Positions 3,368 through 61,600 of a stretch of DNA of 64,000 bases are shown here, piece by piece. The translations under genes were made by a program, and so were the position numbers. Below the pieces are notes generated by a model. The model made no database searches. It was not told the DNA's origin and worked only from the letters and a program-made list of their open reading frames with translations. Positions within the stretch are counted from its first letter, which is position 1. Each line of letters begins with the position of its first letter. Source of the stretch: a virus (lineage: Duplodnaviria; Heunggongvirae; Uroviricota; Caudoviricetes); IMG/VR virus record IMGVR_UViG_3300042890_004094. The stretch is one strand, 5' to 3'.

Positions 3368-3376
3368 ATATATTTG

Positions 3377-3469: not shown

Positions 3470-3471
3470 TG

Positions 3472-3544: not shown

Positions 3545-3549
3545 ATTAG

Positions 3550-3622
3550 TTCCCCCGCCGGGAGTCGAACCCGGCCCCATAGGTTAAAAGCCTATTGCCT
3601 ACTACCAGTTTGCTACGAGGGA
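3550..3622 (-). tRNA. tRNA-Lys(TTT) third copy
   Basis: Reverse complement TCCCTCG...ATAGG-CTTTTAA-CCTAT...GGCCGGGTTCGACTCCCGGC-GGGGGA. Confidence 0.6.
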
Positions 3623-7798: not shown

Positions 7799-8002
7799 AT
7801 GCCGGCTCAATCGAAACAGCAACTAAAGTATATTTATGCAATGCGTAATAAATATAAAAACAAGAAAAGTGCTCCTAAACATATGAAGTGGGTATTTAAC
7901 AAAGATTGGACCCAAGACGTTAAAGCCAGTGGGTTACCAACCAAAGTTAAAAGTTTTCAAACTTATGTAAGTGAAAACTATGATGCTTCGACTAAGAAGT
8001 AA
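7799..8002 (+). CDS. Hypothetical small basic protein (67 aa)
   Basis: Lys-rich ORF; 3' end overlaps the convergent tyrS by 25 nt. Confidence 0.4.
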   Translation: MPAQSKQQLKYIYAMRNKYKNKKSAPKHMKWVFNKDWTQDVKASGLPTKVKSFQTYVSENYDASTKK

Positions 8003-21200: not shown

Positions 21201-21504
21201 GACTATAAATGTTGGTGATAAAAGTTCTATTATAGTTCCACTAAATATTTATTTCAAACTTAATTCATTAGATAATAGTCAAACAGGATTAAATTATCAA
21301 TATATTGATCTTAATAATTCAACAAGAACTGTAAAACATGTTAAGAAAATTAAATTTTTCCTAGAAAATGAGTCAGAGAATAGACCATTTATATTTACAT
21401 TAAAATTTAACTTAAATAGAAATAAAGTTATTGTAAGAAAGTTCAACTCAACCGGTGGTAGTCCAGCATATATAGATGATTGGTCAACATCAAGTAAAAA
21501 ATAA
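18298..21504 (+). CDS. Large hypothetical protein (1068 aa), probably structural
   Basis: Long ORF with Asn/Ser/Thr-rich composition; first gene of a plus-strand block of large proteins. Confidence 0.7.
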   Translation: MVQSSFPKVADQIITYNKNIVEILSKINSLTTTTDSSVTLQVYDENGILRNFTLPSFTSLKADIDRLNNNINSLYSIDAAGALIQTSTQNKYKKIITVDLNRDPTPIGSLGALSTFRSSPNWFFDSLMDPMVSVELDLSGKIEDNVRKCLIRRYIVEFAKNADGSFTTLGQSALNSYNQLFRGNPNIIISEFENWYTTTTGLLNPTNPKYDEQMFDLEPNNLLYDGQFSVLRIQEDRLNRKLWYVLDTLDYLVVDANSTRRLSIGDEVIINSEKTSTRYKILEVSTAESNPRIRVERLEGIEPIPVGIGTLKVYSSVIYTKRVRVSVGYNERNVLFVKPVNADNNLVAKKWSLGTGYYTNDLRLTSDSSANGLSMEQFYIDYVYDYGVVLQDLVAKKTPNSLAGTPGSPTLALDNFKVVQINKHLTDTPDSNLVKQKHNYQLSLKSEIQQLQEAIISRNKASKFTKFKSDSAKKQADLEVGELTNKKDSKSKLLASVTQEVIDLSKDPKNKVTPKFSVRGFWPIPSAVVTTGTKPQEIVQFRVQYRYTSKDGREAPVDTFTITDSQSKASFSNWTEFKTDARKREYNTSTGEYTWAIEDVTNADTPNINQIDIPIQSNERVDIRIKSISEVGWPESAVESDWSEIITIDFPDDLNTIANENDFILTAATKEDLKISMNSELSAKGLDNHLADTVTVNNVTFHHDAKKILSGFQDENGVSLDLYTYIQNLVDRISSLEEKITRAKGELQIIILRNNQEYIVNNGSETTFNVECEDYLTLFNGQGAPTGRVYENNIYVIKDFVMKIKNNAKESLLGLLSNRTYLQSTAVYNTQAPQSFWVNSQDELLTNDVIETGQTRTHLDNQFIWQMNYDSITQNTVAKLSENIGNTFDNATVNSNSITNVLSTSDYNVGYNEPAILKFIGNNKSLLDPSKWNDVTVSIASTTKFLTTIHPVVKSLENIQENNSDKVKTINVGDKSSIIVPLNIYFKLNSLDNSQTGLNYQYIDLNNSTRTVKHVKKIKFFLENESENRPFIFTLKFNLNRNKVIVRKFNSTGGSPAYIDDWSTSSKK

Positions 21505-38352: not shown

Positions 38353-41300
38353 ATGAGTTCAACAAATTTAGTGAAAAAGAATTTATTCACCAAACCTTAT
38401 TTAATAACCTTAGATGAATTAAATCAAATTGGCCAAGATATTAATTTAGTAGGATATGATCCCCAATTAAATCTAACAAGTGATGATACAAATGTCGTTT
38501 TAAAATATGGTATACCTTGTAGTCCTAAACTTTTAAATTGGGTTGAACCTTATAAAGTTGCAGGTATTGATTATACATTATTCTATACAGAAGTTAACTC
38601 TGGATTTAGTATAGGAGATAGAGTATTTATAATTAATGGTACTTATGATAGTAATTTACTAATAACAAGTGATAAGTATAAAAAGGGTCATGATGGTTAT
38701 AAAGTTCTGTTTGTAGATAAATGTCAAGTTGTATTAGATATAGAATTTAATGGTAGTTTACCAAGTAACGAAGGAACAGAACCAAGTGATGACTTAGATA
38801 ATCTAATTAAAGTTTATTATATTAAAGATCAGAATGATTTTATTCATGTAAATAGACAAATTACAACTCGTGGTGGTGATTTTGATTATAGATTTAATAA
38901 GAATCAAAATAATATAATATTTGCACCAGCACAGAGTTATAATGTAACTGGTGCTTGGGGTGAATCATTAGGTTTAACTGGTGGTCCTGGATTTTTTATT
39001 AAAAATGGAACTTCGAGTTGGATAAATATAAGTAATGGCTTTATAATTGGTTCCTATTCTATTGCGGCTACTGCAAGTGCCAACAAAATACTGATATTAA
39101 ATAATAGTTTTGATTATTCAGGTGTAAGTTTTCTAGAAAATTTAGTTTATAGTTACGAAACAACAGGTACTTTTTCTGGTTGGCAAGTAAATGTAAAACA
39201 TGAAAATAAAAATGTTCCTTTAATATCTAAATCTAATTTTAGAAATGGTACATTTAATGGAAATTGGAATGGTGGTATTTATGGTAGTAATGATAAAAGA
39301 ATTACTTGGGGTTCTACCTCATCTATTTGGAACTCAGGTACTTTATTAAATACTATTTGGGAAAATGGTATAATGGAATCTAAACAAAGTCAACCACAAA
39401 GTTTTGTTGCAGAATTTGATAATATTGTGGGTACTTTTGGTGCACCATACCAAAAATCAACTAATCCAGATAATGACGGATATGGTTATAACTTTGTTAT
39501 AAACTCAGAAATAAGAAATGCAATTATCAATAATGCAAATGTTAGTAATTCAATACTAGGTACATCATCTACCTCAATTTCAATTGTAGAGAAACATTTG
39601 GAAGGAACATTGACACCGCAGTTTATTCAAACTTACTTTAACGATACTCTTATAAATAAGGCTTATTTTGAAAGTTGTGGTATTCAAAATGCAAATATAC
39701 AAAACTCTGTTGTAAAAAATTCAAGAGTAGAAAATAGTAGATTTTATAATGTTAAGTCAATAAATACACAATATAAAAAATCTTTATTTAAAAACTCTAA
39801 TTATATTAGTGATAATTCAATAAGAATATTACACTTTGAGGAAACAGATTTTGCAGAAGGTAATTTACCAACTAGTCCTAGAACCCATAAAATTTATAAA
39901 TTTTATATAAATAAAAGAAGTTATGAGAAGTTTAAATTTAAGGACTCTTTTTATATAAAGGGATTAAAAATAAATAGTAATACTACTTCATTACTTAACT
40001 TCTTTGATAAGAAGTTTAAAATGGGTCCATATATTGATTATATTGATCAATTTGATAGTTTTTCTAAAAAATGGTATAAAAGAGGATTTGAGTATAACTG
40101 TATGATTTCAACTCCCAAAGATAATGATTATTTATCAGATGTTAATACAACTAGTCCTTTAAATTCAAATATTGTGACCATTAAAGATAATTTTGGTTAT
40201 TCTATTGATATTTTTGTTAAGATTGCAGATATTAAAAATTTTAATATTACATTACCTAGTTATACAACCCCAGATGTTATTATTGATTATTCAGATGCTT
40301 ATATTTTAAACTCTGATTTTGAAAGTGGTATCTTTGAAAATTCTAATTGGAATAGTGGAAATCATTTTAATTTTAGTAATGATGTGAATATAAAAATTGG
40401 TGATAATTATGTTGAACCGATTTGGAATTTGGATAATAAGTTTGGAAATCTTTCAGATAGTGGTGGATATTATAATATGTCATTAGTTGACGGAACATCA
40501 TCTATAAATGTTAAAACTCTTTATTCAGTTAATGATAGTCAGAGCAATGACTTGTATATAAATGGTAGATATCCTGAATTGGAAGAAGATTACTTGGCGT
40601 TAAACGAAATAGTATTTTTAAATGCAGTCGATTATGATACTAGAGGAAAAGTAACTGGTATTTCTTTCTCTGGCACTGGATCAAATTATACAGTTGCTAC
40701 TGAACTAGCAACTGCATATACTGGAGAAGGAACAGGACTAACTGTTGATATTACTGCAAGTACTATTGGTCAGGTAACAGGTTTCGGCATACTATCTGAA
40801 GGTTCTGGACACCCAAATGATAATACCTACGATTATGAAACCTATAATGCAACCTCTCCAGGATTTGGATTACAATTTAGTATGTATGCGGGAAATACTT
40901 CTTCTATAACGATTGTAAATGGTGGTCAAAATTATACGGTAGGTGCTACAGTATCTATGTTAAGAGATGAATTGACCCCTACCGCAACTAATGATATTCT
41001 TCTTATTACTTCAGTAAATAATGGTGCTGTTTTATCGGTGAATATTAATTATCCTGGCTTGGGTTATTCAAATGGTGATATACTAACGATTATTCAACCC
41101 CCATTAGGAGGTAATGCAACATTTTCAGTAACTGGTATAACAGGATCTTTAACTAGATTACCGGATCAATATAAAATAGTAGAAGAACAATCAAGAGGTA
41201 GTTATAAATTACAAGAAATTATTGCAACTGGCTCAACTAGTATTTTACCTGGATTAACTGCAGGTGGTAAATTTAGTTCTTATGATGCAAATAATAGATA

Positions 41301-44088
41301 TGGTTATTTACATAAAACTAAATTTTATAGATCAAAAATATTATCTGGTATATTTAAAAAAGCATATTTTAATACATCTTTAATAAAAAATGAGTTATAT
41401 GATGTTAGTGATAGAGATTTTAATAATGTTGAAAAAATAAAAATCTTACTAATAGTAGATTCAATATTTTCTAAAAATTCAAATATTCTATCTAAGGCAA
41501 CTTATATGAATTCATTTTTTGTGGGTGGTAGTGATATATGGGAAAATGGTATTTTATATGATTCTATTTGGAATGGTATGACATTTAATGATGGTTTGGT
41601 TAAATCTTCAACTTGGTTAGATGGTATATTTAATAATGGATTATTCTATAGTTCAAATTCTTTTGATGGTAATATTGATAATTTCTCATATAATGAAAAT
41701 AATATAAATTCTTTTTATAGAAGTGGTTTAACTTTTGTAATTATAGAAGACAATTCATCTTCACAGGCTAGAGCAGCACTCAAATTAGTATATAATAATA
41801 GACACTCTTGGCAAAAAGGTACATTTATAAATGGTGAATTTTATAAAAGTGATTGGGAAGGTGGAAATTTCAATGGTGGTAAATTCTACTATTCAAAATT
41901 CTATGATGGTATAATAAATGGTGGTATAATAGGAGATTTATCAACATCTACTGGATATACTAAAATTTATAATGGTGTTATAAATTATACAACTGTTGAA
42001 AATGCAGAACTTATTGCACAGACTAATCTAAAATTATTACCTCCGGACTTTTTAAATAGTAATGGTAATATAAGATGGTTAAATGGTATATTCAACGGTG
42101 GTGTTTTTAGTACATATAACAATCTTAATTTTGCCACTTGGAGTAATGGTATATTCAACGGTGGTGATTTTACAGGAACTGCTAAATGGTTAAATGGTGT
42201 ATTTAATGGTGGTAAATTTACATCATATTATAATTCGTCACAGCTTATATTATATTCACCATCAGATATTAGACAAAACTATTCTTGGGAATATGGCGTA
42301 TTTAATGGTGGTGAGTTCGGAACTGGTGATTTAATAAATAATTCTGGACAAAGAACTTCTTCTGTTGTAAATAATTCAAGTTGGTTTGATGGTGAGTTTA
42401 ATGGAGGTTATTTTAGTGGTAAAGTTTGGAATAATGGTGTATTTACAGCTGGAGAGTTTAACGGATCAGGTAAAACACAATCTGATTATTTTGCAATAGG
42501 CGGTACTGAATCAAATAATGCAAAAATATTTGTATTATCTTTTGGAATAAATATAAATAGTTATGGTATTTGGAAAAGTGGATTTGTAACGGATACTAAA
42601 GATAGATACATTACTAGAGGGGTATACATTGATTCAAAAAGAGTAAGTGATACAAATAGAAATTTAAAAACTGTTGTACTAAGAGATATGCTTTGGATGA
42701 GTGGAACATTTAGTCATCCAAGTGGAACTATACAAAATTCTGTTTGGATAGATGGAACATTTGAAAATGGTACATTTAAGTCAAGTTCATTTAATCCATA
42801 TGTAAATAGAAATGTATTTCTATCATCTGGTTCAAGACTTTTGCCACCATCTTTTAGTATTAGTGATACCTGTATTTGGAAAAATGGTACACTTATAGAT
42901 AGTGATTTTTATATATCAAAATGGGAAAATGGTAACTTTATATCTGGTAATGGATATGGTATGATTTGGAAAAATGGTATTGTAAGTTATATGAATGCTT
43001 ATAATATTTTTTGGGAAAATGGTCTTTGGAGAAATGGTAACTGGTATGGTTCTAGTTTTAATCTAAATAATGATGGTTCCTTAACTAATGATTTTGAAAG
43101 ACAGATTTTATTCAGAGGTATGAATTGGGGAGGTACATCATCATCTCATGTTTGGAATGTTTTTAATAGAGAGTCACTATCTGATGTTAATAATTCTATA
43201 TCTGCATCTGCATCAGTAATAACATATGATCCTAATAGTACTATTGATGAAACCACAATCAATTTACCACCATTTTGGTCATCGAACTCTTCATTTGGTG
43301 TGAATACACCAGTTGTACCACCGCCACCTGTTTTTACTATTACTATAGTTTGGACTTCTACAAATAATGATGATGATATAGCAGTTTCGGGAGATATAAA
43401 TGAAACAATTACTATAACAAGTGACTTACAAATTCTTGTTACTAATGCTGCAGAATTACAAAGTTCTAGTGATGGTACAAATTGGCTTTTTACAAATATA
43501 ACTATTCAAAATTCACCATTCTCACCAAGCTTTATAATTTATGAAAGTTTACCTGATAATTATTTTAGAATATTTGATCCTGTAAGAAATATCTATTCAA
43601 ATGTTCTAAAAATCACAAAATTATTTCCAGAAGAAGAAGATATTGCACCAGGTAAAGCTTTAATTTCACAGATCACATTTGGTCCTTATACTGGTGTAAA
43701 TTATATAATAAGTCGTACAAGAAGTGGAACGATATCAAATTTAGGAGGTAGACAATTTGATGGTACGAGTCCATATATTGCTGTCGGAATTCCTAACAAC
43801 GCGGATGATGGTTATGATTCATTCGGGATCGGAAATGATCTGAATCAATTAGTAAATGGTGATCAAATTTCTATAGGATGTTATGCTGAAGATCAGGTTC
43901 CATTAGCTACAGTTAATGTTACTGTAGAATTGATTTTAGAAAGATCTTTAAGAACTTTAGAAAGCTATGTTGAGATAGATTCTGATTCTGAAACTGGTCA
44001 AACTGTTTCAACAAATATTCCTCTTTACACTATTACTGATTTAGAAACATATGTATATAGGGTAAGAGTTAGTGTTGTTTTAGTTTAA
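38353..44088 (+). CDS. Giant repeat protein (1911 aa), fibre/adhesin-like
   Basis: Dozens of W-x-N-G-x-F-N-G-G-x-F repeats (e.g. WLNGIFNGGVFS, WSNGIFNGGDFT, WLNGVFNGGKFT), Asn/Ser-rich. Confidence 0.75.
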   Translation: MSSTNLVKKNLFTKPYLITLDELNQIGQDINLVGYDPQLNLTSDDTNVVLKYGIPCSPKLLNWVEPYKVAGIDYTLFYTEVNSGFSIGDRVFIINGTYDSNLLITSDKYKKGHDGYKVLFVDKCQVVLDIEFNGSLPSNEGTEPSDDLDNLIKVYYIKDQNDFIHVNRQITTRGGDFDYRFNKNQNNIIFAPAQSYNVTGAWGESLGLTGGPGFFIKNGTSSWINISNGFIIGSYSIAATASANKILILNNSFDYSGVSFLENLVYSYETTGTFSGWQVNVKHENKNVPLISKSNFRNGTFNGNWNGGIYGSNDKRITWGSTSSIWNSGTLLNTIWENGIMESKQSQPQSFVAEFDNIVGTFGAPYQKSTNPDNDGYGYNFVINSEIRNAIINNANVSNSILGTSSTSISIVEKHLEGTLTPQFIQTYFNDTLINKAYFESCGIQNANIQNSVVKNSRVENSRFYNVKSINTQYKKSLFKNSNYISDNSIRILHFEETDFAEGNLPTSPRTHKIYKFYINKRSYEKFKFKDSFYIKGLKINSNTTSLLNFFDKKFKMGPYIDYIDQFDSFSKKWYKRGFEYNCMISTPKDNDYLSDVNTTSPLNSNIVTIKDNFGYSIDIFVKIADIKNFNITLPSYTTPDVIIDYSDAYILNSDFESGIFENSNWNSGNHFNFSNDVNIKIGDNYVEPIWNLDNKFGNLSDSGGYYNMSLVDGTSSINVKTLYSVNDSQSNDLYINGRYPELEEDYLALNEIVFLNAVDYDTRGKVTGISFSGTGSNYTVATELATAYTGEGTGLTVDITASTIGQVTGFGILSEGSGHPNDNTYDYETYNATSPGFGLQFSMYAGNTSSITIVNGGQNYTVGATVSMLRDELTPTATNDILLITSVNNGAVLSVNINYPGLGYSNGDILTIIQPPLGGNATFSVTGITGSLTRLPDQYKIVEEQSRGSYKLQEIIATGSTSILPGLTAGGKFSSYDANNRYGYLHKTKFYRSKILSGIFKKAYFNTSLIKNELYDVSDRDFNNVEKIKILLIVDSIFSKNSNILSKATYMNSFFVGGSDIWENGILYDSIWNGMTFNDGLVKSSTWLDGIFNNGLFYSSNSFDGNIDNFSYNENNINSFYRSGLTFVIIEDNSSSQARAALKLVYNNRHSWQKGTFINGEFYKSDWEGGNFNGGKFYYSKFYDGIINGGIIGDLSTSTGYTKIYNGVINYTTVENAELIAQTNLKLLPPDFLNSNGNIRWLNGIFNGGVFSTYNNLNFATWSNGIFNGGDFTGTAKWLNGVFNGGKFTSYYNSSQLILYSPSDIRQNYSWEYGVFNGGEFGTGDLINNSGQRTSSVVNNSSWFDGEFNGGYFSGKVWNNGVFTAGEFNGSGKTQSDYFAIGGTESNNAKIFVLSFGININSYGIWKSGFVTDTKDRYITRGVYIDSKRVSDTNRNLKTVVLRDMLWMSGTFSHPSGTIQNSVWIDGTFENGTFKSSSFNPYVNRNVFLSSGSRLLPPSFSISDTCIWKNGTLIDSDFYISKWENGNFISGNGYGMIWKNGIVSYMNAYNIFWENGLWRNGNWYGSSFNLNNDGSLTNDFERQILFRGMNWGGTSSSHVWNVFNRESLSDVNNSISASASVITYDPNSTIDETTINLPPFWSSNSSFGVNTPVVPPPPVFTITIVWTSTNNDDDIAVSGDINETITITSDLQILVTNAAELQSSSDGTNWLFTNITIQNSPFSPSFIIYESLPDNYFRIFDPVRNIYSNVLKITKLFPEEEDIAPGKALISQITFGPYTGVNYIISRTRSGTISNLGGRQFDGTSPYIAVGIPNNADDGYDSFGIGNDLNQLVNGDQISIGCYAEDQVPLATVNVTVELILERSLRTLESYVEIDSDSETGQTVSTNIPLYTITDLETYVYRVRVSVVLV

Positions 44089-44147: not shown

Positions 44148-46289
44148 ATGACACCAATAACAATTTTAAGTAGAACTGTAGTAACGGATTCAGGTTTAGG
44201 TTTAACTAGGTGGAGATTCTACATATCTCAAACAGCGTATGAAGCAATAAATGAAGATCATTTTTCATTGACTTTAACACTTCTTTTATTTGACGATCAA
44301 GTTCGGCCATCATTGCCATCAGCACCATGGAGTGAAATATATGGCGATTCAGAGAATCCGATTACTTTTGATCCTTATGGTGTGGCTTGGTTTGTAGAGG
44401 AGGATACTGATACTGTTGCTGGTGGTTGGTATATAAGATTTAATGTGCCAGATGGTAATTCAAAGTTTACAGATATTGATCAATGGGATTTCTTTGAATT
44501 AAATGCAACAAGTGGATCATCTGGGACTAGTGGATCTTCGGGAACTAGTGGATCTTCGGGAACTAGTGGATCAGGAACTAGTGGAACAAGTGGATCAGGA
44601 ACTAGTGGAACAAGTGGATCAGGAACTAGTGGATCTTCGGGAACTAGTGGAACAAGTGGATCAGGAACAAGTGGATCATCAGGAACTAGTGGATCATCAG
44701 GAACTACAACTCCAACAAATTCATTAATACTATTAGAATGGAGTGGTGCATCTGATTTAGATGGTACTGTAGTGGGATATCAACTATCATATAAAACAAC
44801 AGGACCTTCTTTTATAAATATAGCTACTGTACCAGCCAATCTTAATGACCCATCTCATGGTAGTTATAGTTATACTCCAATACAACAAATTGCACATACA
44901 TTTAGAATAATAGCAGTTGATAATCTCGGAGCAGTTAGTGTACCCAAATATTATCAGCATCAGATTGTTGCAAACTATCAAATATCGAATTTATTTGACA
45001 CACAAACTACTACTAGTGCTTGTCAAATTACACAAGAAGGTGGTGCATATAGTTCTATTTTTCTTAGTGCAACTCCGATTGCAGTAGGTGTTATTGTTTT
45101 TACAAATGCGGAAAAGACAATTAGATATGCAGGAGGTAATAATTGTTGGATAATTAAAACTCCTGGAGGATTAGAATATTCTTGTAGAATAAATGGGTCT
45201 GGGGGCTCAACAGGTGGTGAAATAATCGAATTATACTTATGTAGTGGTGGTGGTGGTGTTGGTGATAATAGTGGTCTTATAACATTAGGCAGATCAAGTA
45301 TTCAAGGTGGTAATGGAGTTTGTTCATTGGGTTGGGATGTTCCTAAATACTGGCAAGATACATTAGCAATAGATACAATAATATATAATGATCCTGCATA
45401 TACTTCATTTTTTATTGGAAATTTAAAATATTACATTATCCAATATTTCAATGAGTTTGATTTGACAGTTGAGAATGTTGTACAAATAAATAATTTAGGT
45501 AAAATAACTTATATAAATAATAGAATTAATGCGTGTTCGTCTATTAAAACTGCACGAAGATCATTTGCATCCGGCATCTTCCCGGGAAATGACTCATGTA
45601 CTCTATCTACAGTTGGATGTTATATAAGAACAGTTGATGCTTATATTATTAATAATGGAGATATAGTATATAATGATATTCTTGGTGCAAGTGCATTTAA
45701 TGGAGGTGATCAATACTATAGATTATATCTAAACTCAAATTTGGGTGCTACTAGTGTAGCAGATTTAACTAATGCAATTGCAAAAGTTGGTATAAATGGA
45801 TTAGTAACAATATCTGGATATTGTGGTCTTTCTACTGAAGGTGGTTGCCCAGTACCAGAAACATTAATATTGCTAGCAAATGGTAAACAGATACCGGCAG
45901 GTGATGTAATGGTTGGTGATAAGGTATTTACATTACATGAGATTACATTTGAATTAGGTGAGTATGAGGTAAAAGAAAAAGAAATACTATATCAAGATAG
46001 ACTTCAGATAACATTTGAAGATGAGTCTATAATTAAAGTATCAGATACACATAAATTTTTAATGATTGATAAATCTTGGAAGAGTTCATATAAATTGGAG
46101 AACGGTGACATTATTAAAGGATTAGATATTGATAAAAAGATTATATCAATTGAGAAAATAGGTATTGGTGAAGTAGTTAGATTTAATATAATTGATGCAC
46201 ACACATATATTTCGGAAGGACTAATATCACATAACAAAGGTATAGATGATTATAATACTTATACACCTAATTTTACTAATAATCCATAA
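44148..46289 (+). CDS. Structural-like protein with Ser/Gly/Thr linker and C-terminal Hint (intein-like) domain
   Basis: 713 aa; (SGT)n low-complexity block; C-terminal C-PVPETLILLANGKQIPAGDVMVGDKVF...IIDAHTYISEGLISHN with only 17 aa after HN. Confidence 0.75.
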   Translation: MTPITILSRTVVTDSGLGLTRWRFYISQTAYEAINEDHFSLTLTLLLFDDQVRPSLPSAPWSEIYGDSENPITFDPYGVAWFVEEDTDTVAGGWYIRFNVPDGNSKFTDIDQWDFFELNATSGSSGTSGSSGTSGSSGTSGSGTSGTSGSGTSGTSGSGTSGSSGTSGTSGSGTSGSSGTSGSSGTTTPTNSLILLEWSGASDLDGTVVGYQLSYKTTGPSFINIATVPANLNDPSHGSYSYTPIQQIAHTFRIIAVDNLGAVSVPKYYQHQIVANYQISNLFDTQTTTSACQITQEGGAYSSIFLSATPIAVGVIVFTNAEKTIRYAGGNNCWIIKTPGGLEYSCRINGSGGSTGGEIIELYLCSGGGGVGDNSGLITLGRSSIQGGNGVCSLGWDVPKYWQDTLAIDTIIYNDPAYTSFFIGNLKYYIIQYFNEFDLTVENVVQINNLGKITYINNRINACSSIKTARRSFASGIFPGNDSCTLSTVGCYIRTVDAYIINNGDIVYNDILGASAFNGGDQYYRLYLNSNLGATSVADLTNAIAKVGINGLVTISGYCGLSTEGGCPVPETLILLANGKQIPAGDVMVGDKVFTLHEITFELGEYEVKEKEILYQDRLQITFEDESIIKVSDTHKFLMIDKSWKSSYKLENGDIIKGLDIDKKIISIEKIGIGEVVRFNIIDAHTYISEGLISHNKGIDDYNTYTPNFTNNP
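44508..44705 (+). repeat. Tandem 9/18-nt repeats encoding (S-G-T/S)n linker
   Basis: Repeated ggaactagtggatc(t/a)tc(g/a) units. Confidence 0.8.
45846..46235 (+). other. Hint/intein-like domain coding region within 44148..46289
   Basis: Starts at Cys of GGCPVPETLIL, ends at His-Asn of ISHN. Confidence 0.55.
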
Positions 46290-46298: not shown

Positions 46299-46319
46299 AA
46301 ATTTAATATATAGTTTATG
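46299..46319 (+). promoter_or_regulatory. Conserved motif AAATTTAATATATAGTTTATG fused to the start codon
   Basis: Identical 13-mer TATATAGTTTATG. Confidence 0.5.
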
Positions 46320-49300
46320 CCATTTATAGATACAAACTTAATACAGTCTTGGACTACATCAAATATACAATCACAGGTTGGTATTAACAGAAATGATTAC
46401 CAGGGTTTGTTCTATATTGATAATAGAACAAACGATAGTTTTCCTTATCCAACTGGATATACTTACACACAAGGTAAAAATTATCAAATAGTTACAACTG
46501 TGTTAAGTTCAAATTCAACAATTGGTGCGGAATTGTCTATTAAATTTGCCGCACCTTTTAAGAGTACAGTCGCTGCAACTACACCAGATGTGAATACTAC
46601 ATCATCTGGTGTAGAATTTTATACTTATGCAACACCTTTATCTACATTAAAATCAAAATCAATAGTCAGATATGGTGCTACCGAAGCTTTTACACAGTCA
46701 ATAATTACAAAATCTGTATTAAATGAAATTGACTTTTTAATAAATGGATTTAGAGAATATAGTGATTTATCAATGGCAATAGATGATATTTCACAACCAA
46801 ATGGTTGGTATTTTAACGAAATTAGTGGCTCATATAGGTACCATTGGCTTAATAATGGAGGTAGTTCTGCACCAGCATATTCAACATTTGGATCCGGATT
46901 AGATACTATAGTTAATCAAAATTTTATAGCAAAACCAATTGAATATGATGTTTTTGGGTTAGAGTTAAATTATAATTTTATAAACCGTACAGATCCAAGT
47001 GATGGTATGAATATTTATATAGTAAGAAGTGATTTATTAAAAGACCCAACAAGTTGGGGTCCTTCTATAGCAAATCTAACCGCAGCAAATACAGTATTTG
47101 CAACTAACAGTTTGCCAGGAATAAGTTCAAATGGTTCTAGAAACTATTTAGTTATTTCTGCATTAAGTGTTGGAACCTATTCTGCTTATTTAGATAATAT
47201 TTATATCTACGGTGCTTATCATAAAGATAACAATAGATTACAATTACCAACTGATAGTATATCATATTCAAATCCAACTTTATTGAATATTTCTATGATT
47301 TCTGCTACTTATTCACATGTACTACTACAAAATGGAACTCCTTATACACTAACATCTAGAATTGGTAATGGTTTATTTAGGTCAGGTATTTGGGAGAATG
47401 GTGTTTGGAATAGTGGTTGGAGGGATGATGAAGAAGCAAGAGACTTTGATGATGTTGCATTTTCAGTTTTAACTGAGTCTGATATTTCATGGAAAATTGA
47501 AATTAGGGGATCTACATACTCAATTGCAAATTTTGCAACTGGATCTGCAGTATCTATTGGTAATATTGTTGCAATAGATATAAATGATAATAGAAAACTT
47601 CTGGGAGACTATTATAAAATTGAAGACTTGGGTATTGGTTATAACTATTCACCAAGTGGTTCAACACAATCCACATATGGTTGGATTAGAGTAAATTTGA
47701 ATACTACTTTCCCTTATAGAAGAATTGAGAAGGATTCACAAAATCATAAGATAAAAGTAACTAAGAATATTTGGTTATCTGGTGGCTTCTTTAATGGTTA
47801 TTTCTCTGGTGTTTGGAACAATGGATTATTCAAAGGATATCCACTTATAACAGAGATGTTTAATACACACTGGATTGATGGATTCTTTAATGGAGGTCAT
47901 TTCAATTCTATCTATTCAGAGACTTATGAATTCACTAATTTGAATCCTCGTGAGGCGTGTACAAACGGTTATATAAATCTTACATTTGAGACACAACATA
48001 CATCATTTTTACCTGGAGATTATATCATGATTACCTTTGGAAGTGCAGTTCTTAATAGTGCTGGATATGGAGGAGTTGCACAAATTATCGCAATTGAACA
48101 TGTGGTTGATTCATCCGGTTCATTTAGAGATATTATTACAATTGATAAAATATTTACTGGTGATAGTATTATTACCGCAGCCGGTACTAATCTAGGTGTA
48201 ACTGTATTGGGATCGGTAGTAAGATATACTGGAACAGGTTTAATACAGAATTTTAAATTTTATGATAATAATAGATCTAAAATAAAATCTATTGATAATA
48301 TATTATCTACTGCAGTATTTAGTTTTAATTCCTGGATTGATGTAAATTACGATGAAACTAGAGCAGTAACTTTAGGTAGAGATTTTAGAATGTATGAACC
48401 ACTTACTAAAAAATCTATAAATAGAAATAATTTATATGGTTATCCAACATATGATGTTCTATCATCTTTATCACGTTTTAGAGATAGTAATACATTAGAT
48501 TATAAATTATATAAATTAGGTACTAAATATAAATTATTTACTGATTTTATTGGAAGTGCATCAGGTTTTAATGAGCCATTTAATGAGTTAGATTTTAGTA
48601 GCTTTACAAATGCAGGTTGGACTTCATCATATAATAATATAAATAACTTTTCTTTAAAAAGAACAGAAAATATAATATCATTAAACAATCAACTATCTAC
48701 TGATTTTTTAAATTCCGGTGTAACTGGTGATGAGTTACATGTATTGGCAAGTAATACTGGATTTATATTAAATAATAATAATATAAATATTTCAAAATCT
48801 AGGTATTCAGTTGTAGAGTTTGATGTAATAACACATAGTAGTGTAACTACTTTTAATTATAAAAATCCAGATATTTACATAATTAAAAGTATCAATAGTA
48901 TTGGTCTGACATTTAGCGAAACAATATTTGCAGGTGATGGTTCTACATCAAATAATAGTATAACAAGTGTTTATAATATAACTGGTCCAGTCACTATAAA
49001 TACCAATGATAGACCAATTGATGATATTTTGGTTATGGTTGATATTTATGGAGATGTTTCTGCAACAACAATTAATTTAGTTGCACCTAATGGTAAAATA
49101 ATAAATATTAAAAGAAATGGAAGTGGTTTAGGTACAAGATTATCAAATACTAAGTTTAGTTTAAGAGACGTATATACTAAATTTTCATCAATTACAACAC
49201 CATATAGTTTAAATAATACAACTACTTCTTATGCTGATACATATTTAATGGATAAAGAACTTGGACAAGGTGATGTGAATTCAACTCCCTCTCCACAATT

Positions 49301-50960
49301 TTTATCAGATAGTAATAAATTATCTGACCTTATTACTTTACCATACGGTGATTGGATCTTATACATTAAGTATAATCCAAATTCTGTAATTCCGTTTGAT
49401 TTAGTAAATTGGTCAATAGAAATTCAATATAGAGAGACTGTTAGTGTAGATACTGAACCAATTTCAACATTGCCGGTATTAAATTTATCTAACCTTAACT
49501 ATGATATTACTACACAATTATCAGGTTATGATAATGTACAGATTTATAAACAAATGAATTATCTACCAATACGACAAAATGTCAATCATTTAAAAGTGAG
49601 TAATACATTTAGATTAGACTCAATTGAGGACTCTAGACCTAGTAGATGGGGTGGTTTTGGGAAAAATCAACCAACTAAAAAGTATGAATATTTCTATAAT
49701 AAAACTGATATGATGTTAAATATCAATGGTAATGGTGTAACTGGAGCAAGTACATCAATGTTAGTATTGGATAATCTTAATATGTATGAAGTAGATATGA
49801 TTCCATTCTTTAAATACTTTGATGAGGTGAATATTTACAAAGGAATACAAATTCCTTATATCGGTGAAGCACCTAATATTGATTATTTAAACTCAGATTT
49901 TGTATTTGTTGATAATATTACAGTTGGTGTTGATGCAATTGATGCAAATGGTAATAATACTTTTTCTACAAATTGTGACCCTGTTATTGTAGTTGCTGCA
50001 ACACCGGTAGCTAGTACAACACCAATATTTAGAGTATATACAAATCCTGGTCAACCAACAAATCAAAATCCTTTTAATATAACACAAAATAATACTAATG
50101 CGATTCAACTATCTGCATATATATATGCAAATGGTATAAGTGATATTCCTTCATCAATTAGTTGGGCGATAATAACTGGCCCGGGTGCTAGTTTGAATAC
50201 TAGTTCTTCTCTAACGCCTATTATATCAGGATTAGTATCTGGTACTTATGTATTACGTGTTAGAGCAGTATCTGCTACTTATAGTAATGTGAATGGAGTA
50301 ATTGACTCTATATCCTGGGAAGCATTTATTAATATTGGTATTAGTGTACCTGTTGTACCAGGACCTGTTATAAATACCGGTAATCAAAATAAATTTAAAG
50401 GTATTACTTATAGTGTGGATGATATTAATTTACAAGCCTTTGCAAAAAGTTTTACATCTCCTGAGATAATAGGTGCATATAGTACTAGTGTGCCAGGTGG
50501 TGCAAGTACTATAAAAATTCTATCATTGCCATCAGTTGGAAAATTAGTTTTTGCTGGTGCCTCAGAATATGATAATTTATCAGTAAATAGTGTTGTTTTT
50601 GTATCTGATATAACTGATACTAGAATGGCTTATTCGGCGTGGGGTAATCCTCCAACTAATGATGGTATATCATTGGCATCAACTACACCAGAAGGTCAGT
50701 TCTATAGTACATCGTTTAAATATGTGATTATTGATACTGCAGGTAATCAATCTCTAGATATTACTATGACACTAACATGTACTAAAGGTGTTGTTTCTGT
50801 AACAACAATTGGTGGAAATACTGGGACAGGACCTTCACCAGGACAAGGACAAGAACAAGAAACTCCAGATCCTGAGCAGCCTGATCAACAATATGAACCA
50901 GGTGAAGAACAAGGATCACAAGAAGGGCAAGAAGGACCAGAGAATGATGGTTGGTGTTAA
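46317..50960 (+). CDS. Giant repeat protein (1547 aa), fibre/adhesin-like, acidic Gln/Glu/Pro-rich C-terminal tail
   Basis: W-x-N-G-x-W/F repeats (IWENGVWNSGW, WLSGGFFNGYFSGVWNNGLFKGY, HWIDGFFNGGHFNS); a short region (about 49000-49260) loosely resembles a proprotein-convertase P-domain; tail GPSPGQGQEQETPDPEQPDQQYEPGEEQGSQEGQEGPENDGWC. Confidence 0.75.
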   Translation: MPFIDTNLIQSWTTSNIQSQVGINRNDYQGLFYIDNRTNDSFPYPTGYTYTQGKNYQIVTTVLSSNSTIGAELSIKFAAPFKSTVAATTPDVNTTSSGVEFYTYATPLSTLKSKSIVRYGATEAFTQSIITKSVLNEIDFLINGFREYSDLSMAIDDISQPNGWYFNEISGSYRYHWLNNGGSSAPAYSTFGSGLDTIVNQNFIAKPIEYDVFGLELNYNFINRTDPSDGMNIYIVRSDLLKDPTSWGPSIANLTAANTVFATNSLPGISSNGSRNYLVISALSVGTYSAYLDNIYIYGAYHKDNNRLQLPTDSISYSNPTLLNISMISATYSHVLLQNGTPYTLTSRIGNGLFRSGIWENGVWNSGWRDDEEARDFDDVAFSVLTESDISWKIEIRGSTYSIANFATGSAVSIGNIVAIDINDNRKLLGDYYKIEDLGIGYNYSPSGSTQSTYGWIRVNLNTTFPYRRIEKDSQNHKIKVTKNIWLSGGFFNGYFSGVWNNGLFKGYPLITEMFNTHWIDGFFNGGHFNSIYSETYEFTNLNPREACTNGYINLTFETQHTSFLPGDYIMITFGSAVLNSAGYGGVAQIIAIEHVVDSSGSFRDIITIDKIFTGDSIITAAGTNLGVTVLGSVVRYTGTGLIQNFKFYDNNRSKIKSIDNILSTAVFSFNSWIDVNYDETRAVTLGRDFRMYEPLTKKSINRNNLYGYPTYDVLSSLSRFRDSNTLDYKLYKLGTKYKLFTDFIGSASGFNEPFNELDFSSFTNAGWTSSYNNINNFSLKRTENIISLNNQLSTDFLNSGVTGDELHVLASNTGFILNNNNINISKSRYSVVEFDVITHSSVTTFNYKNPDIYIIKSINSIGLTFSETIFAGDGSTSNNSITSVYNITGPVTINTNDRPIDDILVMVDIYGDVSATTINLVAPNGKIINIKRNGSGLGTRLSNTKFSLRDVYTKFSSITTPYSLNNTTTSYADTYLMDKELGQGDVNSTPSPQFLSDSNKLSDLITLPYGDWILYIKYNPNSVIPFDLVNWSIEIQYRETVSVDTEPISTLPVLNLSNLNYDITTQLSGYDNVQIYKQMNYLPIRQNVNHLKVSNTFRLDSIEDSRPSRWGGFGKNQPTKKYEYFYNKTDMMLNINGNGVTGASTSMLVLDNLNMYEVDMIPFFKYFDEVNIYKGIQIPYIGEAPNIDYLNSDFVFVDNITVGVDAIDANGNNTFSTNCDPVIVVAATPVASTTPIFRVYTNPGQPTNQNPFNITQNNTNAIQLSAYIYANGISDIPSSISWAIITGPGASLNTSSSLTPIISGLVSGTYVLRVRAVSATYSNVNGVIDSISWEAFINIGISVPVVPGPVINTGNQNKFKGITYSVDDINLQAFAKSFTSPEIIGAYSTSVPGGASTIKILSLPSVGKLVFAGASEYDNLSVNSVVFVSDITDTRMAYSAWGNPPTNDGISLASTTPEGQFYSTSFKYVIIDTAGNQSLDITMTLTCTKGVVSVTTIGGNTGTGPSPGQGQEQETPDPEQPDQQYEPGEEQGSQEGQEGPENDGWC

Positions 50961-58658: not shown

Positions 58659-61600
58659 TTATTTAATTTTTCTATTTACTAATATACCCAATCCGTAAGA
58701 TTCTTTGTAGTTATAAAACTCTAAATCATAATTATATGATAATTCATGACAAGCTCTCTTTACCTCAGCATAAGACTCTGTATCATGAAAAACAGTAACT
58801 CTACTATGTTGTACTGCCCACTCACCACACTCATAGGTATGTTTAAAATCATGAACTATATCAATATGTGTTAGACCGTATATATCACTATTTTCTTTAA
58901 TAAAGTCTTTATAATCAGATTTTAGTAAAGTTATATTTTTATAAGGTTCTAAATAACTTTTAGTTTGTTCTAAATGATCATCTTTTAATCCACTGTGTAT
59001 ATCACCAGTAAAAATGTCTACTCCTAAAACATTACTAAAATAGTTTGATAGAGCTGACGTTGAATAGCCATATTCTACACCAAATTCTAATGCGTTAGTT
59101 GTATCGACATCAAATCTTTCAATAATATCCTTTAAAATTGTTGGTATATTACCCCATGCAGAAGGATGAGGTTGTTCAGCCAATATTGGAAAGTCTCTAT
59201 TTTTCGGAATAAATTCTATTTCACTGTTATTTCTATACTGTAGAGTTTTATCAGATTCTATTATAGAGATTACTTGTTTAGATGTAATTGATTTACTACA
59301 TTCAAATTGTTTATCAGTTCCTTTATTAACAGGACACCAGTTCCAATCACCAGCATCTAATCTATGAGTATTGAAACATCCATTACAAACAGATTCATTA
59401 ATTATTCTAATAATATTATCATCTAATGGTTCCGTAATAGGTTTACTAAATCCAGATATAATTACTGTTGGTTTACTTAAAGCCCAAGATAACCAACTGA
59501 TACCTGAACTTATACCAATAAACATATCACAATTATATAAATATGTAATTAAGCTATCCATAGAACTATCTTTCATATAAATAACACCTTCTGGATTTTT
59601 ATTACCCATATATCCATCTGATTCTGAACTTACAATAACTACATCATAACCATTTAATTTATAATGATCTACAATATCTTGCCAACCGGTTGGGTTATTC
59701 CAATACTTTGCTTGTGCAGTTGAGTGTATTGCAATACAGATATATTTATTATCTAAAGGTCTACTTATATCATTTATCTTAATAAGTGGTTTTAAACAAC
59801 TCTGGTAAAGTCCTAGAATGTCTGTTGTGACTGCTTGTAATGGAATATTTTTAAAATCTCTTGGATTTTTAAATTTATTAAAAACATTATTATCATAGAA
59901 CCAACCAATATTATATGTTGTGTAAGTATTAAAATCTTGACCAGGATTTACAAATGTTAATCTTGGATATTTTTCGAGATCAAATAGAAAGTTTTTAAAG
60001 GTACTTAATATTACACTACAGTTATTTTTCTCAGCGAACTCGTTAACATGAGGTACCCATGCTAAAGTATCACCTAAAGATGATGACTCTAATTTTACTC
60101 GGACAATTTTATTATCAAGATTAAAGTTATCAATTACTAACTCATTTGTAGTTAAGTTATAAATTTCTATTCTCCACTTAATATAATAAGTAATTGAGCA
60201 TTTAGTCCAACAGTTTTTACCTATTGTAGTTTCATATAATATTTCATTAGTGTCATTATTTATAAACTTCACATTATATTTAAAATCTTCACCACCAATA
60301 ATTTCAACAAATGGACCATCATTATAATCTATGTTATATGTTTCCTTTTCTATTTCAACTTTATTGTCATTAATATCTCTTAATATATTTCTATTTTTAA
60401 CTTTAAAACTAGCGATTGAATTATCAATATTAAATTTATCGATAAATGTTTTTTCTTTATCGTATATTTCTATACCGTTTATTAGATCATTATAATCAAT
60501 TTTTACTAACTTATATCCTAAAGTAGAACTAATTATGTATTCATTATCTTTTGTTTTAATAAATAAATCATTTTTATTATTAAAGAATACATAATAGTCA
60601 CTATTAAACTTTCCTGATATACAACCAGAGTTACTTAACCATCTGTTATTTATTTCAAATTTATTAATGATATTATTATCATTTTTAATATCATTAATAT
60701 TAAAAATTTTATAATTTATATTATTTTGTATAATTGATGTACCTATAACATCTTCTAAAATAACCTTATTATTATATTTAAAATAGTTTTTCTTTGAATT
60801 TAACTCTTTAATAACACTACCAAATTTACAATTTGTAGAAAAGAATCCAGTATTAACTGATAAGTCTTTGTTATAACTATCCCAATTATATCCAATTAAA
60901 TCATAACTTTCTAATAGATTGGAATTATTATTTAATGTATCATAATCTATGATATAATCATAATTTATAAAGTGTATTTTTTCAAAACCATTATATTCCG
61001 CGATTGCAAAGCCATTCCTTATTAATTTAAGTGCGGCATAACTATGATTGAATCTAAAAGGCAAATTAATATCACAATAATTATAATTCCAAAAAGTGAA
61101 TAGTGAATGACTTGTATAAACTTTACTTTCTTTATATGAAATTATTGGATTATCCTTATCAATTATAACATAATCACATAATTCTGTTATGTTTTTTGGA
61201 ACTTCAATATGTGATGTTAAAATTACACTAAATCCATTATCTATTGAGTTAACTACATTTTTTCTCAGGATATCTAATTTTTCATCATTGTCACAGTGTG
61301 ACATTATTACAACAACCTCTTTCTTATTTAAAGATCTTTTTAATTCTTTAAATCCATCTTGGCCTATCTTCTCCCAATTAAACTTTTCTTTAATTATTTT
61401 AGCATCTTTTAAGGCAACTTCTTTCTTTTGTTGATAGTTATCATAACAATCAATTAAAACTCGTTGTAAGTCGTTATAATCAGGTTCTGCATATAGTCCA
61501 GGTGTATCACTGGCAAATCCTAGATCTTTACCTATATTAGCGGGTAGTTCAGTTCTTATAGCTACTGGATTTCCTAATCCTTTTGCAAATTCTAATTGAG

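What the first reader, a model, noticed from the sequence alone, without database searches (positions are those of the whole stretch)
44148..46289. C-terminal Hint/intein-like domain on a structural-type protein, preceded by an (SGT)n linker
The last ~130 aa begin with Cys (GGCPVPETLILLANGK...) and end with ...ISHN, which are the hallmark first and last blocks of Hint domains. Only 17 aa follow, so this is not a classical intein and not a toxin-delivering PT-Hint. It may drive autoproteolytic release, C-terminal processing or covalent attachment of a fibre-like protein. The upstream (SGT)n linker is encoded by near-perfect DNA tandem repeats and may vary in copy number.
Basis: partly seen in the sequence, partly recalled or inferred. 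Interest (0 to 1): 0.65.

Follow-up and report, generated by a model that had tools for sequence, protein, structure and literature searches.

The report
Self-cleaving Hint module ending a phage protein
The last 147 residues of this huge-phage protein form a real, catalytically complete intein-like (Hint) self-processing domain, one member of a large, apparently phage-restricted and apparently unstudied family that caps tail fibres and other big virion proteins and nearly always has a lysine just after its cleavage site.

Summary
ORF 44148-46289 encodes 713 aa. Cys567-Asn696 is a Hint domain followed by 17 residues.

- **Fold:** the AlphaFold model of this domain has pLDDT 90.7. It matches BIL2 of Tetrahymena, DnaB mini-inteins and Hedgehog with TM 0.72-0.79.
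- **Catalysis:** the residues needed for self-processing are all present: Cys567, Ser632/His635, His685 and His695-Asn696. The +1 residue is Lys, so it is not a classical intein. It is not a PT-HINT either, because no toxin domain follows.
- **Family:** an exhaustive search found 952 cluster representatives. A scan of IMG/VR found at least 120 viral loci, against 5 hits in 185,579 cellular genomes.
- **Architecture:** about 40% of members sit at the C-terminus with a tail of 30-45 aa or less. Lys occupies +1 or +2 in 92-95% of members. Hosts include tail-fibre, central-fibre-J, tape-measure-like and neck-module proteins.
- **Cassette behaviour:** a syntenic orthologue carries a different C-terminal domain, and a 642-kb relative lacks the gene altogether.
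- **Selection:** the Hint is the most constrained part of the protein.
- **Linker:** the (SGT)n DNA repeat is imperfect and absent from relatives. It marks a mosaic breakpoint.

The most likely function is BIL-type self-excision through a Gly566-Cys567 thioester and Asn696 cyclisation. Whether water or a lysine amine resolves the thioester is untested.

The parts
44148..46289 (+). Whole gene: a 713-aa accessory protein lying between two giant genes (1911 aa and 1547 aa)
   Evidence: Synteny is kept in L001 (378-kb scaffold) and on P0271's contig. The gene is absent from the 642-kb phage LR756502.1, where the two giant genes are adjacent.
44148..44507 (+). N-terminal domain (about aa 1-120), homologous among the three orthologues but very divergent
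   Evidence: Alignments. It is only about 50% nt identical to L002, whereas the rest of the gene is 94-100% identical. No paralogue was found in the window or in the fetched loci.
44508..44717 (+). (S-G-S/T)n low-complexity spacer encoded by imperfect tandem DNA repeats; it is also a mosaic junction
   Evidence: TRF: periods 18/24/42, 72-81% matches; sequence. The repeat is absent from P0001/L002. In L001 it is replaced by a PSPSPS stretch plus at least 4 tandem Ig/FN3-like domains. Identity to L002 jumps from about 50% to above 94% at about 44700.
44721..44987 (+). FN3/Ig-like domain (about aa 192-280); weak evidence
   Evidence: It carries the LLEWSGASDxDG..GYxLSYK motif, which is conserved in P0001, P0002 and P0271. 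There are only faint FN3 hits in PDB sequences and Big_9/DUF5126 hits at E about 0.04 for P0271. This is an inference, not a demonstration.
45000..45827 (+). Cys-bounded repeat modules of about 90 aa (about aa 285-560), fast-evolving body of the protein
   Evidence: Modules R2 and R3 are significantly similar (Smith-Waterman z=4.7, 0 of 300 shuffles reach the score). R1 shares only the pattern. P0271 is 38% identical over this region. Nonsynonymous:synonymous counts are 20:3 against L002 and 79:34 against L001.
45846..46235 (+). Hint (BIL/mini-intein-like) autoprocessing domain, Cys567-Asn696. Key residues: Cys567 (block A), Ser632-x-x-His635 (block B), Asp683-Ala-His685-Thr-Tyr (block F), Ser694-His695-Asn696 (block G).
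   Evidence: Nonsynonymous:synonymous counts are 0:4 against L002 and 17:16 against L001.
46236..46286 (+). 17-aa C-terminal tail starting with Lys697 (the +1 residue)
   Evidence: Lys is at +1 or +2 in 147 of 155 representative domains and 115 of 125 IMG/VR domains. The rest of the tail is not conserved across the family. pLDDT of the tail is 55-61.

Best explanation
Residues 567-696 are a catalytically competent Hint domain of the bacterial-intein-like (A-type-like) kind. It is fused as a C-terminal cassette to a rapidly evolving, modular, probably virion-surface or fibre-like accessory protein. The phage is a huge one related to the Lak/'Mahaphage' group, and its host is probably in Bacteroidota.

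Shown:
- the Hint fold;
- the complete catalytic set (Cys1, block-B Ser/His, block-F His, terminal His-Asn);
- the absence of a +1 nucleophile;
- membership of a large, almost exclusively viral family with this architecture;
- stronger purifying selection on the Hint than on the rest of the protein;
- cassette-like presence or absence among orthologues.

Inferred mechanism: after folding or assembly, Cys567 attacks the Gly566 carbonyl (N-S acyl shift) to give a thioester. Asn696 cyclises to a succinimide and releases the 17-aa tail. The thioester is then resolved either by water or by an amine. Water would give simple cleavage: a mature protein of about 566 aa ending in ...EGG, plus a free 130-aa Hint. 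The likeliest amine is the alpha- or epsilon-amino group of the conserved Lys697, as in BIL domains that lack a +1 nucleophile and in Tetrahymena BIL2.

Either way the Hint removes itself. It would then be a transient C-terminal module, functionally comparable to the self-cleaving S74 chaperone domains of tailspikes.
For: Fold and family:
- PDB profile hits to inteins and BIL domains.
- 35 of 37 family members hit Pfam Intein_splicing and 26 of 37 hit PT-HINT.
- AF2 pLDDT is 90.7. The Foldseek top hits are BIL2, DnaB, gp41-1, 2lwy and Hedgehog at TM 0.72-0.79.

Catalytic residues across 155 aligned domains:
- Cys1 in 152 of 155;
- block-B His in 155 of 155;
- His-Asn in 155 of 155;
- block-F His in 152 of 155;
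- residue -1 mostly Gly, Ser, Thr or Ala.

+1 position: Lys at +1 or +2 in 92-95% of domains; Cys, Ser or Thr at +1 in only 6 of 155 and 4 of 125.

Architecture: 62 of 145 representatives have tails of 45 aa or less, and 45 of 111 complete IMG/VR ORFs have tails of 30 aa or less.

Host proteins of the family:
- tail fibre phrog_5616 (2.6e-98) and central tail fibre J;
- tape-measure-like motifs;
- the phrog_29329 protein, which lies next to the neck protein in phage PTm1.

Selection: Hint 0 nonsynonymous: 4 synonymous and 17:16, against 20:3 and 79:34 for the body of the protein.

Precedent: BIL domains cleave at either end and sit in hypervariable regions (PMC7765530). BIL2 forms a Lys epsilon-amine isopeptide by splicing (PMC8616854).
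Against: - There is no experimental evidence of cleavage for any member of this family.
- This sequence alone scores below Pfam's gathering thresholds (PT-HINT 19-24 bits against 27.7; Intein_splicing 11.5-20.6 bits against 35.8).
- Virion association of this particular protein is not shown. Its neighbours have no annotated structural function.
- The purpose of cleaving off tails as short as 1-10 aa is unexplained.
- Tandem arrays of 2-5 Hints in some relatives do not fit a simple 'chaperone cap' picture.
Confidence: 0.72

Rival explanations
1. Covalent conjugation in trans. The Gly566 thioester is captured by a lysine, or another amine or hydroxyl, on a different molecule. That could be another virion protein (permanent anchoring of the fibre by its conserved C-terminal end) or a host-surface molecule. 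This would resemble BIL2-mediated Ubl conjugation or Hedgehog cholesteroylation.
For: - The top structural match is BIL2, which conjugates its N-extein to lysines.
- The N-extein often ends in Gly-Gly or poly-Gly.
- Polarity is unusual for a fibre: the N-terminal domain is the most divergent part and the C-terminal part the most conserved. That would fit C-terminal anchoring.
Against: - The invariant His-Asn and the conserved Lys at +1/+2 point to chemistry in cis at the C-terminal junction.
- No partner protein has been identified.
- Structural similarity to BIL2 is no greater than to ordinary mini-inteins (E 4e-11 against 5e-11).
Confidence: 0.12
2. A selfish or neutral mini-intein-like cassette. 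The Hint spreads by recombination into linkers and C-termini of phage proteins. It is kept active only because failure to excise would harm the host protein, and it makes no adaptive contribution.
For: - Patchy presence or absence among orthologues, and movement between unrelated proteins.
- Insertion between low-complexity Pro- or Gly-rich linkers, and tandem arrays.
Against: - There is no homing endonuclease.
- At a C-terminus, a single stop codon would remove the domain at no cost. Yet about 40% of members are C-terminal, with every catalytic residue intact and under purifying selection.
- The family is common in viral contigs, with at least 120 loci found.
Confidence: 0.12
3. A classical protein-splicing intein or a PT-HINT toxin-release module.
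For: - Weak Pfam hits to PT-HINT and Intein_splicing.
- The best sequence-profile hits in the PDB are true inteins.
Against: - +1 is Lys, not Cys, Ser or Thr.
- The C-extein is 17 non-conserved residues.
- The orthologue without the Hint has an unrelated C-terminal domain rather than joined exteins.
- No toxin domain and no immunity gene follow the Hint; the next gene is the conserved 1547-aa giant.
Confidence: 0.02
4. A degenerate, non-catalytic Hint fold that serves only as a structural or binding domain.
For: None specific; this is the generic null hypothesis.
Against: All catalytic positions are present here and are invariant or nearly so across 155 divergent domains. The domain is under purifying selection.
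Confidence: 0.03

Closest known systems
A-type bacterial intein-like (BIL) domains (Amitai et al. 2003; Dassa et al. 2004, as summarised in PMC7765530); solved example 2lwy from Clostridium thermocellum
   Same: - Hint fold, Cys1 and a C-terminal His-Asn.
- No nucleophile at +1.
- Located in hypervariable regions of non-conserved proteins.
- Expected to self-cleave at either junction.
- 2lwy is hit at 3.7e-4 by the single sequence and at 2.4e-8 by the family profile, with TM 0.75.
   Different: - This family has its own signature: CP[DV]P, S-x-[ST]-H-K-F, DAHTY, SHN-K.
- It is almost entirely viral.
- It is often the very last domain, with a tail of 1-30 aa.
- It keeps Lys at +1 or +2.
- True inteins score at least as well as 2lwy against the profile, so assignment to the A-type subfamily is unresolved.
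BIL2 of the Tetrahymena thermophila BUBL1 polyubiquitin-like locus (PDB 6y75/6tmm)
   Same: - It is the best Foldseek match (E 4e-11, TM 0.79).
- The N-extein ends in Gly before Cys1.
- Splicing uses a lysine amine and produces an isopeptide bond (PMC8616854).
   Different: - Sequence identity is only 18%.
- The system is eukaryotic.
- The flanks are ubiquitin-like domains, not a fibre-like protein and a 17-aa tail.
- A role for Lys697 here is inference only.
Class 1 mini-inteins (gp41-1, Ssp/Npu DnaB, DnaE)
   Same: - Same fold and the same catalytic blocks A, B, F and G.
- They are the best sequence-profile hits (gp41-1 at 7.6e-12).
   Different: - Inteins have Cys, Ser or Thr at +1.
- They interrupt conserved sites of essential enzymes and leave a seamless host protein.
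- Here +1 is Lys, the flanks are linkers, and the C-extein is vestigial.
PT-HINT (PF07591) of polymorphic toxins
   Same: A Hint domain lying near the C-terminus of a large, variable, extracellular-type protein; it is the best single-sequence Pfam hit.
   Different: - The score is below the gathering threshold (19-24 bits against 27.7).
- No toxin domain or immunity gene lies downstream.
Peptidase S74 intramolecular chaperone domains of phage tailspikes and fibres (functional analogue only)
   Same: A C-terminal, self-cleaving, discarded module on phage fibre proteins. Some relatives carry an S74-like 'SDIRLKTNI' segment right after the Hint.
   Different: The fold and chemistry are unrelated (a Ser-Lys dyad against a Cys thioester plus Asn cyclisation).

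Membership tests
Hint (Hedgehog/intein) superfamily | Hint fold | tested here: met
   AF2 model with pLDDT 90.7. Foldseek probability is 1.00 and TM is 0.72-0.79 to BIL2, DnaB, DnaE and RecA inteins and to Hedgehog 1at0.
Hint (Hedgehog/intein) superfamily | N-terminal nucleophile (block A Cys/Ser) and block B T/S-x-x-H | tested here: met
   Cys567 and Ser632-Asp-Thr-His635 are present. Across the family Cys is found in 152 of 155 domains and His in 155 of 155.
Hint (Hedgehog/intein) superfamily | Significant sequence-profile match to curated or solved Hint domains | tested here: met
   The family profile hits PDB inteins and BIL domains at E 7.6e-12 to 1e-5. The single sequence is below Pfam's thresholds.
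Classical (class 1) intein | Cys/Ser/Thr at +1 of the C-extein | tested here: not met
   +1 is Lys697. Across the family, Cys, Ser or Thr is at +1 in only 6 of 155 and 4 of 125 domains.
Classical (class 1) intein | Insertion into a conserved host protein, with contiguous exteins in intein-less homologues | tested here: not met
   The orthologue P0271 lacks the Hint and has an unrelated C-terminal domain of about 125 aa. The 17-aa tail is not conserved.
Classical (class 1) intein | Terminal His-Asn for succinimide formation | tested here: met
   His695-Asn696 are present, and the pair is found in 155 of 155 family domains.
A-type BIL domain | Hint motifs with a C-terminal His-Asn and no +1 nucleophile | tested here: met
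   definition as given in PMC7765530.
A-type BIL domain | Residence in hypervariable regions of non-conserved proteins | tested here: met
   The gene is absent, Hint-less or Hint-bearing among close relatives. Family members are flanked by low-complexity linkers.
A-type BIL domain | Closer in sequence to A-type BILs than to other Hint families | tested here: inconclusive
   2lwy scores 2.4e-8, but gp41-1 and DnaX/DnaB inteins score 7.6e-12 to 4e-9 against the family profile. No A-type BIL profile was available to test against.
A-type BIL domain | Demonstrated auto-cleavage | not testable with these tools
   Needs expression and mass spectrometry.
PT-HINT (PF07591) | Score above Pfam's gathering threshold | tested here: not met
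   19.2 bits for the whole protein and 23.6 bits for the domain, against 27.7.
PT-HINT (PF07591) | A C-terminal toxin domain downstream of the Hint | tested here: not met
   Only 17 residues follow.
Hedgehog Hog domain | Sterol-recognition region after the Hint, and no terminal His-Asn | tested here: not met
   His-Asn is present and nothing resembling an SRR follows.

The most novel reading that the evidence does not exclude
This phage-restricted Hint family may be a lysine-directed protein ligase in cis or in trans. The Gly-Cys thioester would be captured by the conserved Lys at +1/+2, or by a lysine on another virion or host protein. That would create an isopeptide-linked or branched C-terminus without ATP, as Tetrahymena BIL2 does for ubiquitin-like domains. 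If so, phages would use intein chemistry to cap, staple or covalently anchor fibres and other large virion proteins.
Probability: 0.2. Interest if true: 0.85.

Novelty: new variant of a known kind. Interest (0 to 1): 0.55.

Why it matters
Hint chemistry is well known from inteins, Hedgehog, polymorphic toxins and bacterial BIL domains. A dedicated, abundant, virus-restricted Hint family on tail fibres and other large virion proteins does not appear in the literature I could search. This family is often the last domain of the protein, with a vestigial tail that begins with lysine.

If it self-excises, it is a second, independent solution to the 'disposable C-terminal assembly module' of phage fibres, alongside the S74 chaperone. 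If the thioester is passed to a lysine, it would be a natural ATP-free ligation system in virions and a source of compact new protein-engineering tools.

Locally, it shows how an accessory host-interaction gene of a huge phage is assembled from exchangeable cassettes joined at low-complexity linkers.

Tried and rejected
- **Full-length AF2 model:** built on three sequences, it had pLDDT 29 and was unusable.
- **First homologue search:** it was swamped by collagen-like low-complexity hits to the SGT linker, and only P0001 and P0002 were real. A word-indexed search with the Hint alone found one fragment. The exhaustive search was needed.
- **afdb50 fold library:** not available.
- **Cultured and deposited phage genomes:** they contain almost no members. 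tblastn gave one weak hit among 50,697 records.
- **Flanking giant proteins:** PHROG, Pfam and NCBIfam gave nothing beyond weak pentapeptide-like repeats.
- **Promoter and terminator scans:** no better than shuffled sequence.
- **N-terminal domain:** no paralogue in the window or the fetched loci.
- **P0271's alternative C-terminal domain:** no PDB or Pfam match, and one weak cyanophage hit.
- **Readings rejected:** classical intein, PT-HINT and Hedgehog-type were rejected on defining features (see the membership test).
- **Literature:** searches for intein-like or Hint domains on tail fibres or tape-measure proteins found no description of this family.
Full report
**1. The observation**

The window carries an ORF at 44148-46289 (+) of 713 aa. 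It runs from an ATG immediately after an in-frame stop. It lies 59 nt downstream of a 1911-aa gene and 27 nt upstream of a 1547-aa gene on the same strand.

The C-terminal region reads ...GLSTEGG|C567-PVPETLILLANGK ... DAHTYISEGLIS-H695-N696|K697-GIDDYNTYTPNFTNNP.

The S/G/T spacer (about aa 121-190) is encoded by tandemly repeated DNA at about 44507-44706. The repeats are imperfect: periods of 18, 24 and 42 nt, 72-81% matches, 8-17% indels.

**2. Is it a Hint domain?**

On its own the sequence gives only sub-threshold signals. Pfam PT-HINT scores E 0.0015 at 19 bits against a cutoff of 27.7. The solved BIL domain 2lwy scores E 3.7e-4.

An exhaustive phmmer search with residues 555-713 found 952 cluster representatives at E<=1e-3 and 333 at E<=1e-10. 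A profile of 37 of them (alignment A2) hits solved Hint domains convincingly:
- gp41-1 intein at 7.6e-12;
- DnaX and DnaB mini-inteins at about 3e-9 to 7e-8;
- the C. thermocellum BIL at 2.4e-8;
- Tetrahymena BIL2 at 5e-8.

Of the 37 members, 35 hit Pfam Intein_splicing and 26 hit PT-HINT at E<0.01.

AlphaFold2 on that alignment gives pLDDT 90.7 and pTM 0.82. Foldseek places the model on BIL2 (6y75, E 4e-11, TM 0.79), Ssp and Npu DnaB, gp41-1, NpuDnaE, 2lwy and Hedgehog 1at0, all at probability 1.00. The fold assignment is therefore secure.

**3. Catalytic anatomy**

Counts across 155 aligned domains:

| Position | Residue(s) found | Count out of 155 |
|---|---|---|
| 1 | Cys | 152 |
| Block B | Ser / Thr at His-3 | 151 / 4 |
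| Block B | His | 155 |
| Block F (DAHTY) | His | 152 |
| Terminal pair | His-Asn | 155 |
| -1 | Gly / Ser / Thr / Ala | 67 / 28 / 15 / 11 |
| +1 | Lys | 103 |

- Residue -1 is small and is often preceded by poly-Gly.
- Counted by motif, Lys is at +1 or +2 in 147 of 155 representative domains and 115 of 125 IMG/VR domains. A classical nucleophile (Cys, Ser or Thr) is at +1 in only 6 and 4.
- The window protein has every one of these residues: Cys567, Ser632, His635, His685, His695, Asn696 and Lys697.
- The invariant His-Asn implies that cleavage at the C-terminal junction matters, even where the tail is only 1-10 residues long.

**4. The family and where it sits**

All 120 contain a true Hint by HMM.

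A slightly stricter pattern, which also required the +1 Lys, found only 5 stretches in one genome from each of 185,579 bacterial and archaeal species. All 5 were in MAGs. tblastn against 50,697 deposited phage genomes found one weak hit. On these scans the family looks almost entirely viral and mostly uncultivated; the two pattern scans are not strictly comparable.

Position within the host protein:
- 62 of 145 representatives have 45 residues or fewer after His-Asn.
- 45 of 111 3'-complete viral ORFs have 30 or fewer, and 26 have 10 or fewer.
- The short tails are not conserved apart from the Lys.
- The other members lie inside long proteins between Pro- or Gly-rich linkers.
- Some proteins carry 2-5 Hints in tandem.

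Proteins that carry the domain:
- a tail fibre (phrog_5616, 2.6e-98) and a central tail fibre J homologue;
- proteins with tape-measure motifs;
- in L079 and L078, the homologue of this window's own ORF 18298-21504 (phrog_29329, 29% identity over 844 aa). Its Hint is 52% identical to ours.

In Tenacibaculum phage PTm1 the phrog_29329 gene follows the head-completion and neck genes. BFVD also holds automatically named 'Hint domain containing protein' entries from uncultured Caudovirales phages, some combined with FN3 or collagen repeats. I found no paper describing this family.

**5. The host protein and its genome**

The window has 28% GC and carries:
- 13 tRNA genes;
- a tyrosyl-tRNA synthetase and an NAD-dependent ligase;
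- a 1093-aa protein with a CHU_C type IX secretion sorting domain.

Its large genes are 68-74% identical at protein level to those of uncultured phages of 635-642 kb. They are more distantly related to genes of Lak, Tenacibaculum, Chryseobacterium, Flavobacterium and Sphingomonas jumbo phages. This is a huge phage, and its host is probably in Bacteroidota.

True orthologues of the target gene are few:
- L002 (P0001, a 2.8-kb contig);
- L001 (a 378-kb scaffold). There the gene really starts at 8593 and is broken by a scaffold gap, so the database protein P0002 is truncated;
- P0271, a syntenic gene 38% identical over the FN3-like and repeat region.

P0271 has no N-terminal domain and no Hint. 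After the same ...YC..GG boundary it carries an unrelated domain of about 125 aa. In LR756502.1 the two giant genes are adjacent and the gene is missing altogether. So the gene is accessory, and its two ends are exchangeable cassettes.

The spacer differs in kind, not in copy number:
- (SGT)n in the window;
- a short Pro/Val/Thr linker in L002;
- a PSPSPS stretch plus at least 4 tandem Ig/FN3-like domains in L001.

Against L002, nucleotide identity is about 50% upstream of about 44700 and 94-100% downstream. The linker is therefore a recombination junction.

**6. Selection**

Codon changes, nonsynonymous: synonymous:

| Compared with | Hint | FN3-like domain | Repeat body |
|---|---|---|---|
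| L002 | 0:4 | 8:3 | 20:3 |
| L001 | 17:16 | 23:13 | 79:34 |

The Hint is the most constrained part of a fast-evolving protein. That argues for a functional domain rather than a decaying one. The N-terminal domain is the most divergent part, which is the reverse of the usual fibre polarity.

**7. Mechanism**

Shown:
- the fold and the full catalytic set;
- no +1 nucleophile and no toxin domain;
- the domain is only a cassette, present in some orthologues and absent from others.

Inferred from established Hint chemistry:
- an N-S acyl shift at Gly566-Cys567 produces a thioester;
- Asn696 cyclisation frees the tail;
- the thioester is resolved by hydrolysis or by an amine.

BIL domains that lack a +1 nucleophile are known to cleave at either end (PMC7765530). 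Tetrahymena BIL2, the best structural match, joins its N-extein to a lysine epsilon-amine (PMC8616854). The Lys at +1/+2, conserved in 92-95% of domains, makes an amine-capture route a serious possibility. It remains untested.

The net effect I consider most likely (0.72) is self-removal of the Hint from a fibre-like protein. This would be analogous in role, not in fold, to S74 intramolecular chaperones. Some relatives even carry S74-like SDIRLKTNI segments after the Hint.

Rival readings:
- trans-conjugation (0.12);
- a selfish cassette with no adaptive role (0.12);
- classical intein or PT-HINT (0.02);
- an inactive structural fold (0.03).

**8. Verdict**

The domain is not a member of the classical intein, PT-HINT or Hedgehog families. 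It behaves like an A-type BIL domain, but its sequence affinity to that subfamily is unresolved.

It is best described as a new variant of a known kind: a virus-restricted, lysine-flanked, frequently C-terminal Hint family. Interest is moderate to high (0.55). It would be much higher if lysine-directed ligation were shown.

Noticed in passing
window 2131-3622 (-): A cluster of 13 tRNA genes with duplicates (Ser x3, Lys x3, Phe x2, His x2, Trp x2, Arg). It coincides with a local rise in GC to 41% in a genome of about 28% GC.
   Followed up: no
window 4141-7422 (-): A 1093-aa phage protein ending in a CHU_C type IX secretion sorting domain (Pfam 2.5e-11). This implies a phage-encoded cargo for the host's T9SS and points to a Bacteroidota host.
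   Followed up: partly
window 7978-9234 (-) and 16111-17958 (-): A phage-encoded tyrosyl-tRNA synthetase (phrog_9270, 5e-140) and an NAD-dependent DNA ligase (phrog_3869, 4e-112).
   Followed up: no
window 18298-21504 (+); L079 1517-5680 (-); L078 10342-14091 (-): The window's 1068-aa phrog_29329 protein has no Hint, but its homologues in two IMG/VR contigs end in a Hint of the same family, 52% identical to ours. Both are followed by the homologue of window ORF 21514-25788. In Tenacibaculum phage PTm1 this gene sits next to the head-completion and neck genes.
   Followed up: partly
L046, L041, L081 (IMG/VR); P0220, P0131, P0128: Proteins with 3-5 Hint domains in tandem, separated by only 14-58 residues (and as few as 6 in P0125). 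A simple cleavable-cap model does not explain these arrays. The layout resembles a polyprotein or a BUBL-like locus.
   Followed up: no
P0148, P0152, P0157, P0164, P0169 and others; L003, L036: A recurrent C-extein follows the Hint: K-[AF]-[KR]-G-G-[LIMV]-V ... GPGDGVSDSIPA..LADGEFVVPARIVSELGNGST. It matches motifs of PHROG tape-measure families (for example phrog_25241 at 4e-29 for P0163).
   Followed up: partly
P0125, P0214, P0202, P0215, P0233: Some relatives have a Peptidase-S74-like start (SDIRLKTNI, or KRCDIRTKEDISKL...) directly after the Hint. That would put two different self-processing modules in series.
   Followed up: no
P0271 residues about 365-492: The Hint-less orthologue ends in an unrelated domain of about 125 aa (KIICNLLYNQGFLSKEIWEADEKFG...KPWSEHMAY...) with a hydrophobic and then poly-basic C-terminus. 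It has no Pfam or PDB match. Its only phage hit is a weak one to a hypothetical protein of Synechococcus phage SynMITS9220M01 (4e-4).
   Followed up: partly
window about 44700; L002: A sharp mosaic breakpoint lies at the end of the SGT linker. The end of the upstream giant gene, the intergenic region and the N-terminal domain are about 50% identical to L002. Everything downstream is 94-100% identical.
   Followed up: yes
L001 8593-11905: The orthologous gene in the 378-kb scaffold is split by a run of N inside at least 4 tandem Ig/FN3-like repeats of about 90 aa. The database protein P0002 (634 aa, TTG start) is therefore a truncated gene call.
   Followed up: yes
window 38353-44088 (+) and 46317-50960 (+): Two giant proteins (1911 aa and 1547 aa) are rich in W-x-NG-x-F-x-GG-x-F repeats, with only weak pentapeptide-repeat hits. 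They are conserved and adjacent in the 635-642-kb uncultured phages LR745206 and LR756502. Their function is unknown.
   Followed up: partly
window 58659-62474 (-): A 1271-aa multidomain protein combines two kinds of glycosyltransferase (GT1-type and heptosyltransferase/TibC-like) with a methyltransferase domain.
   Followed up: no
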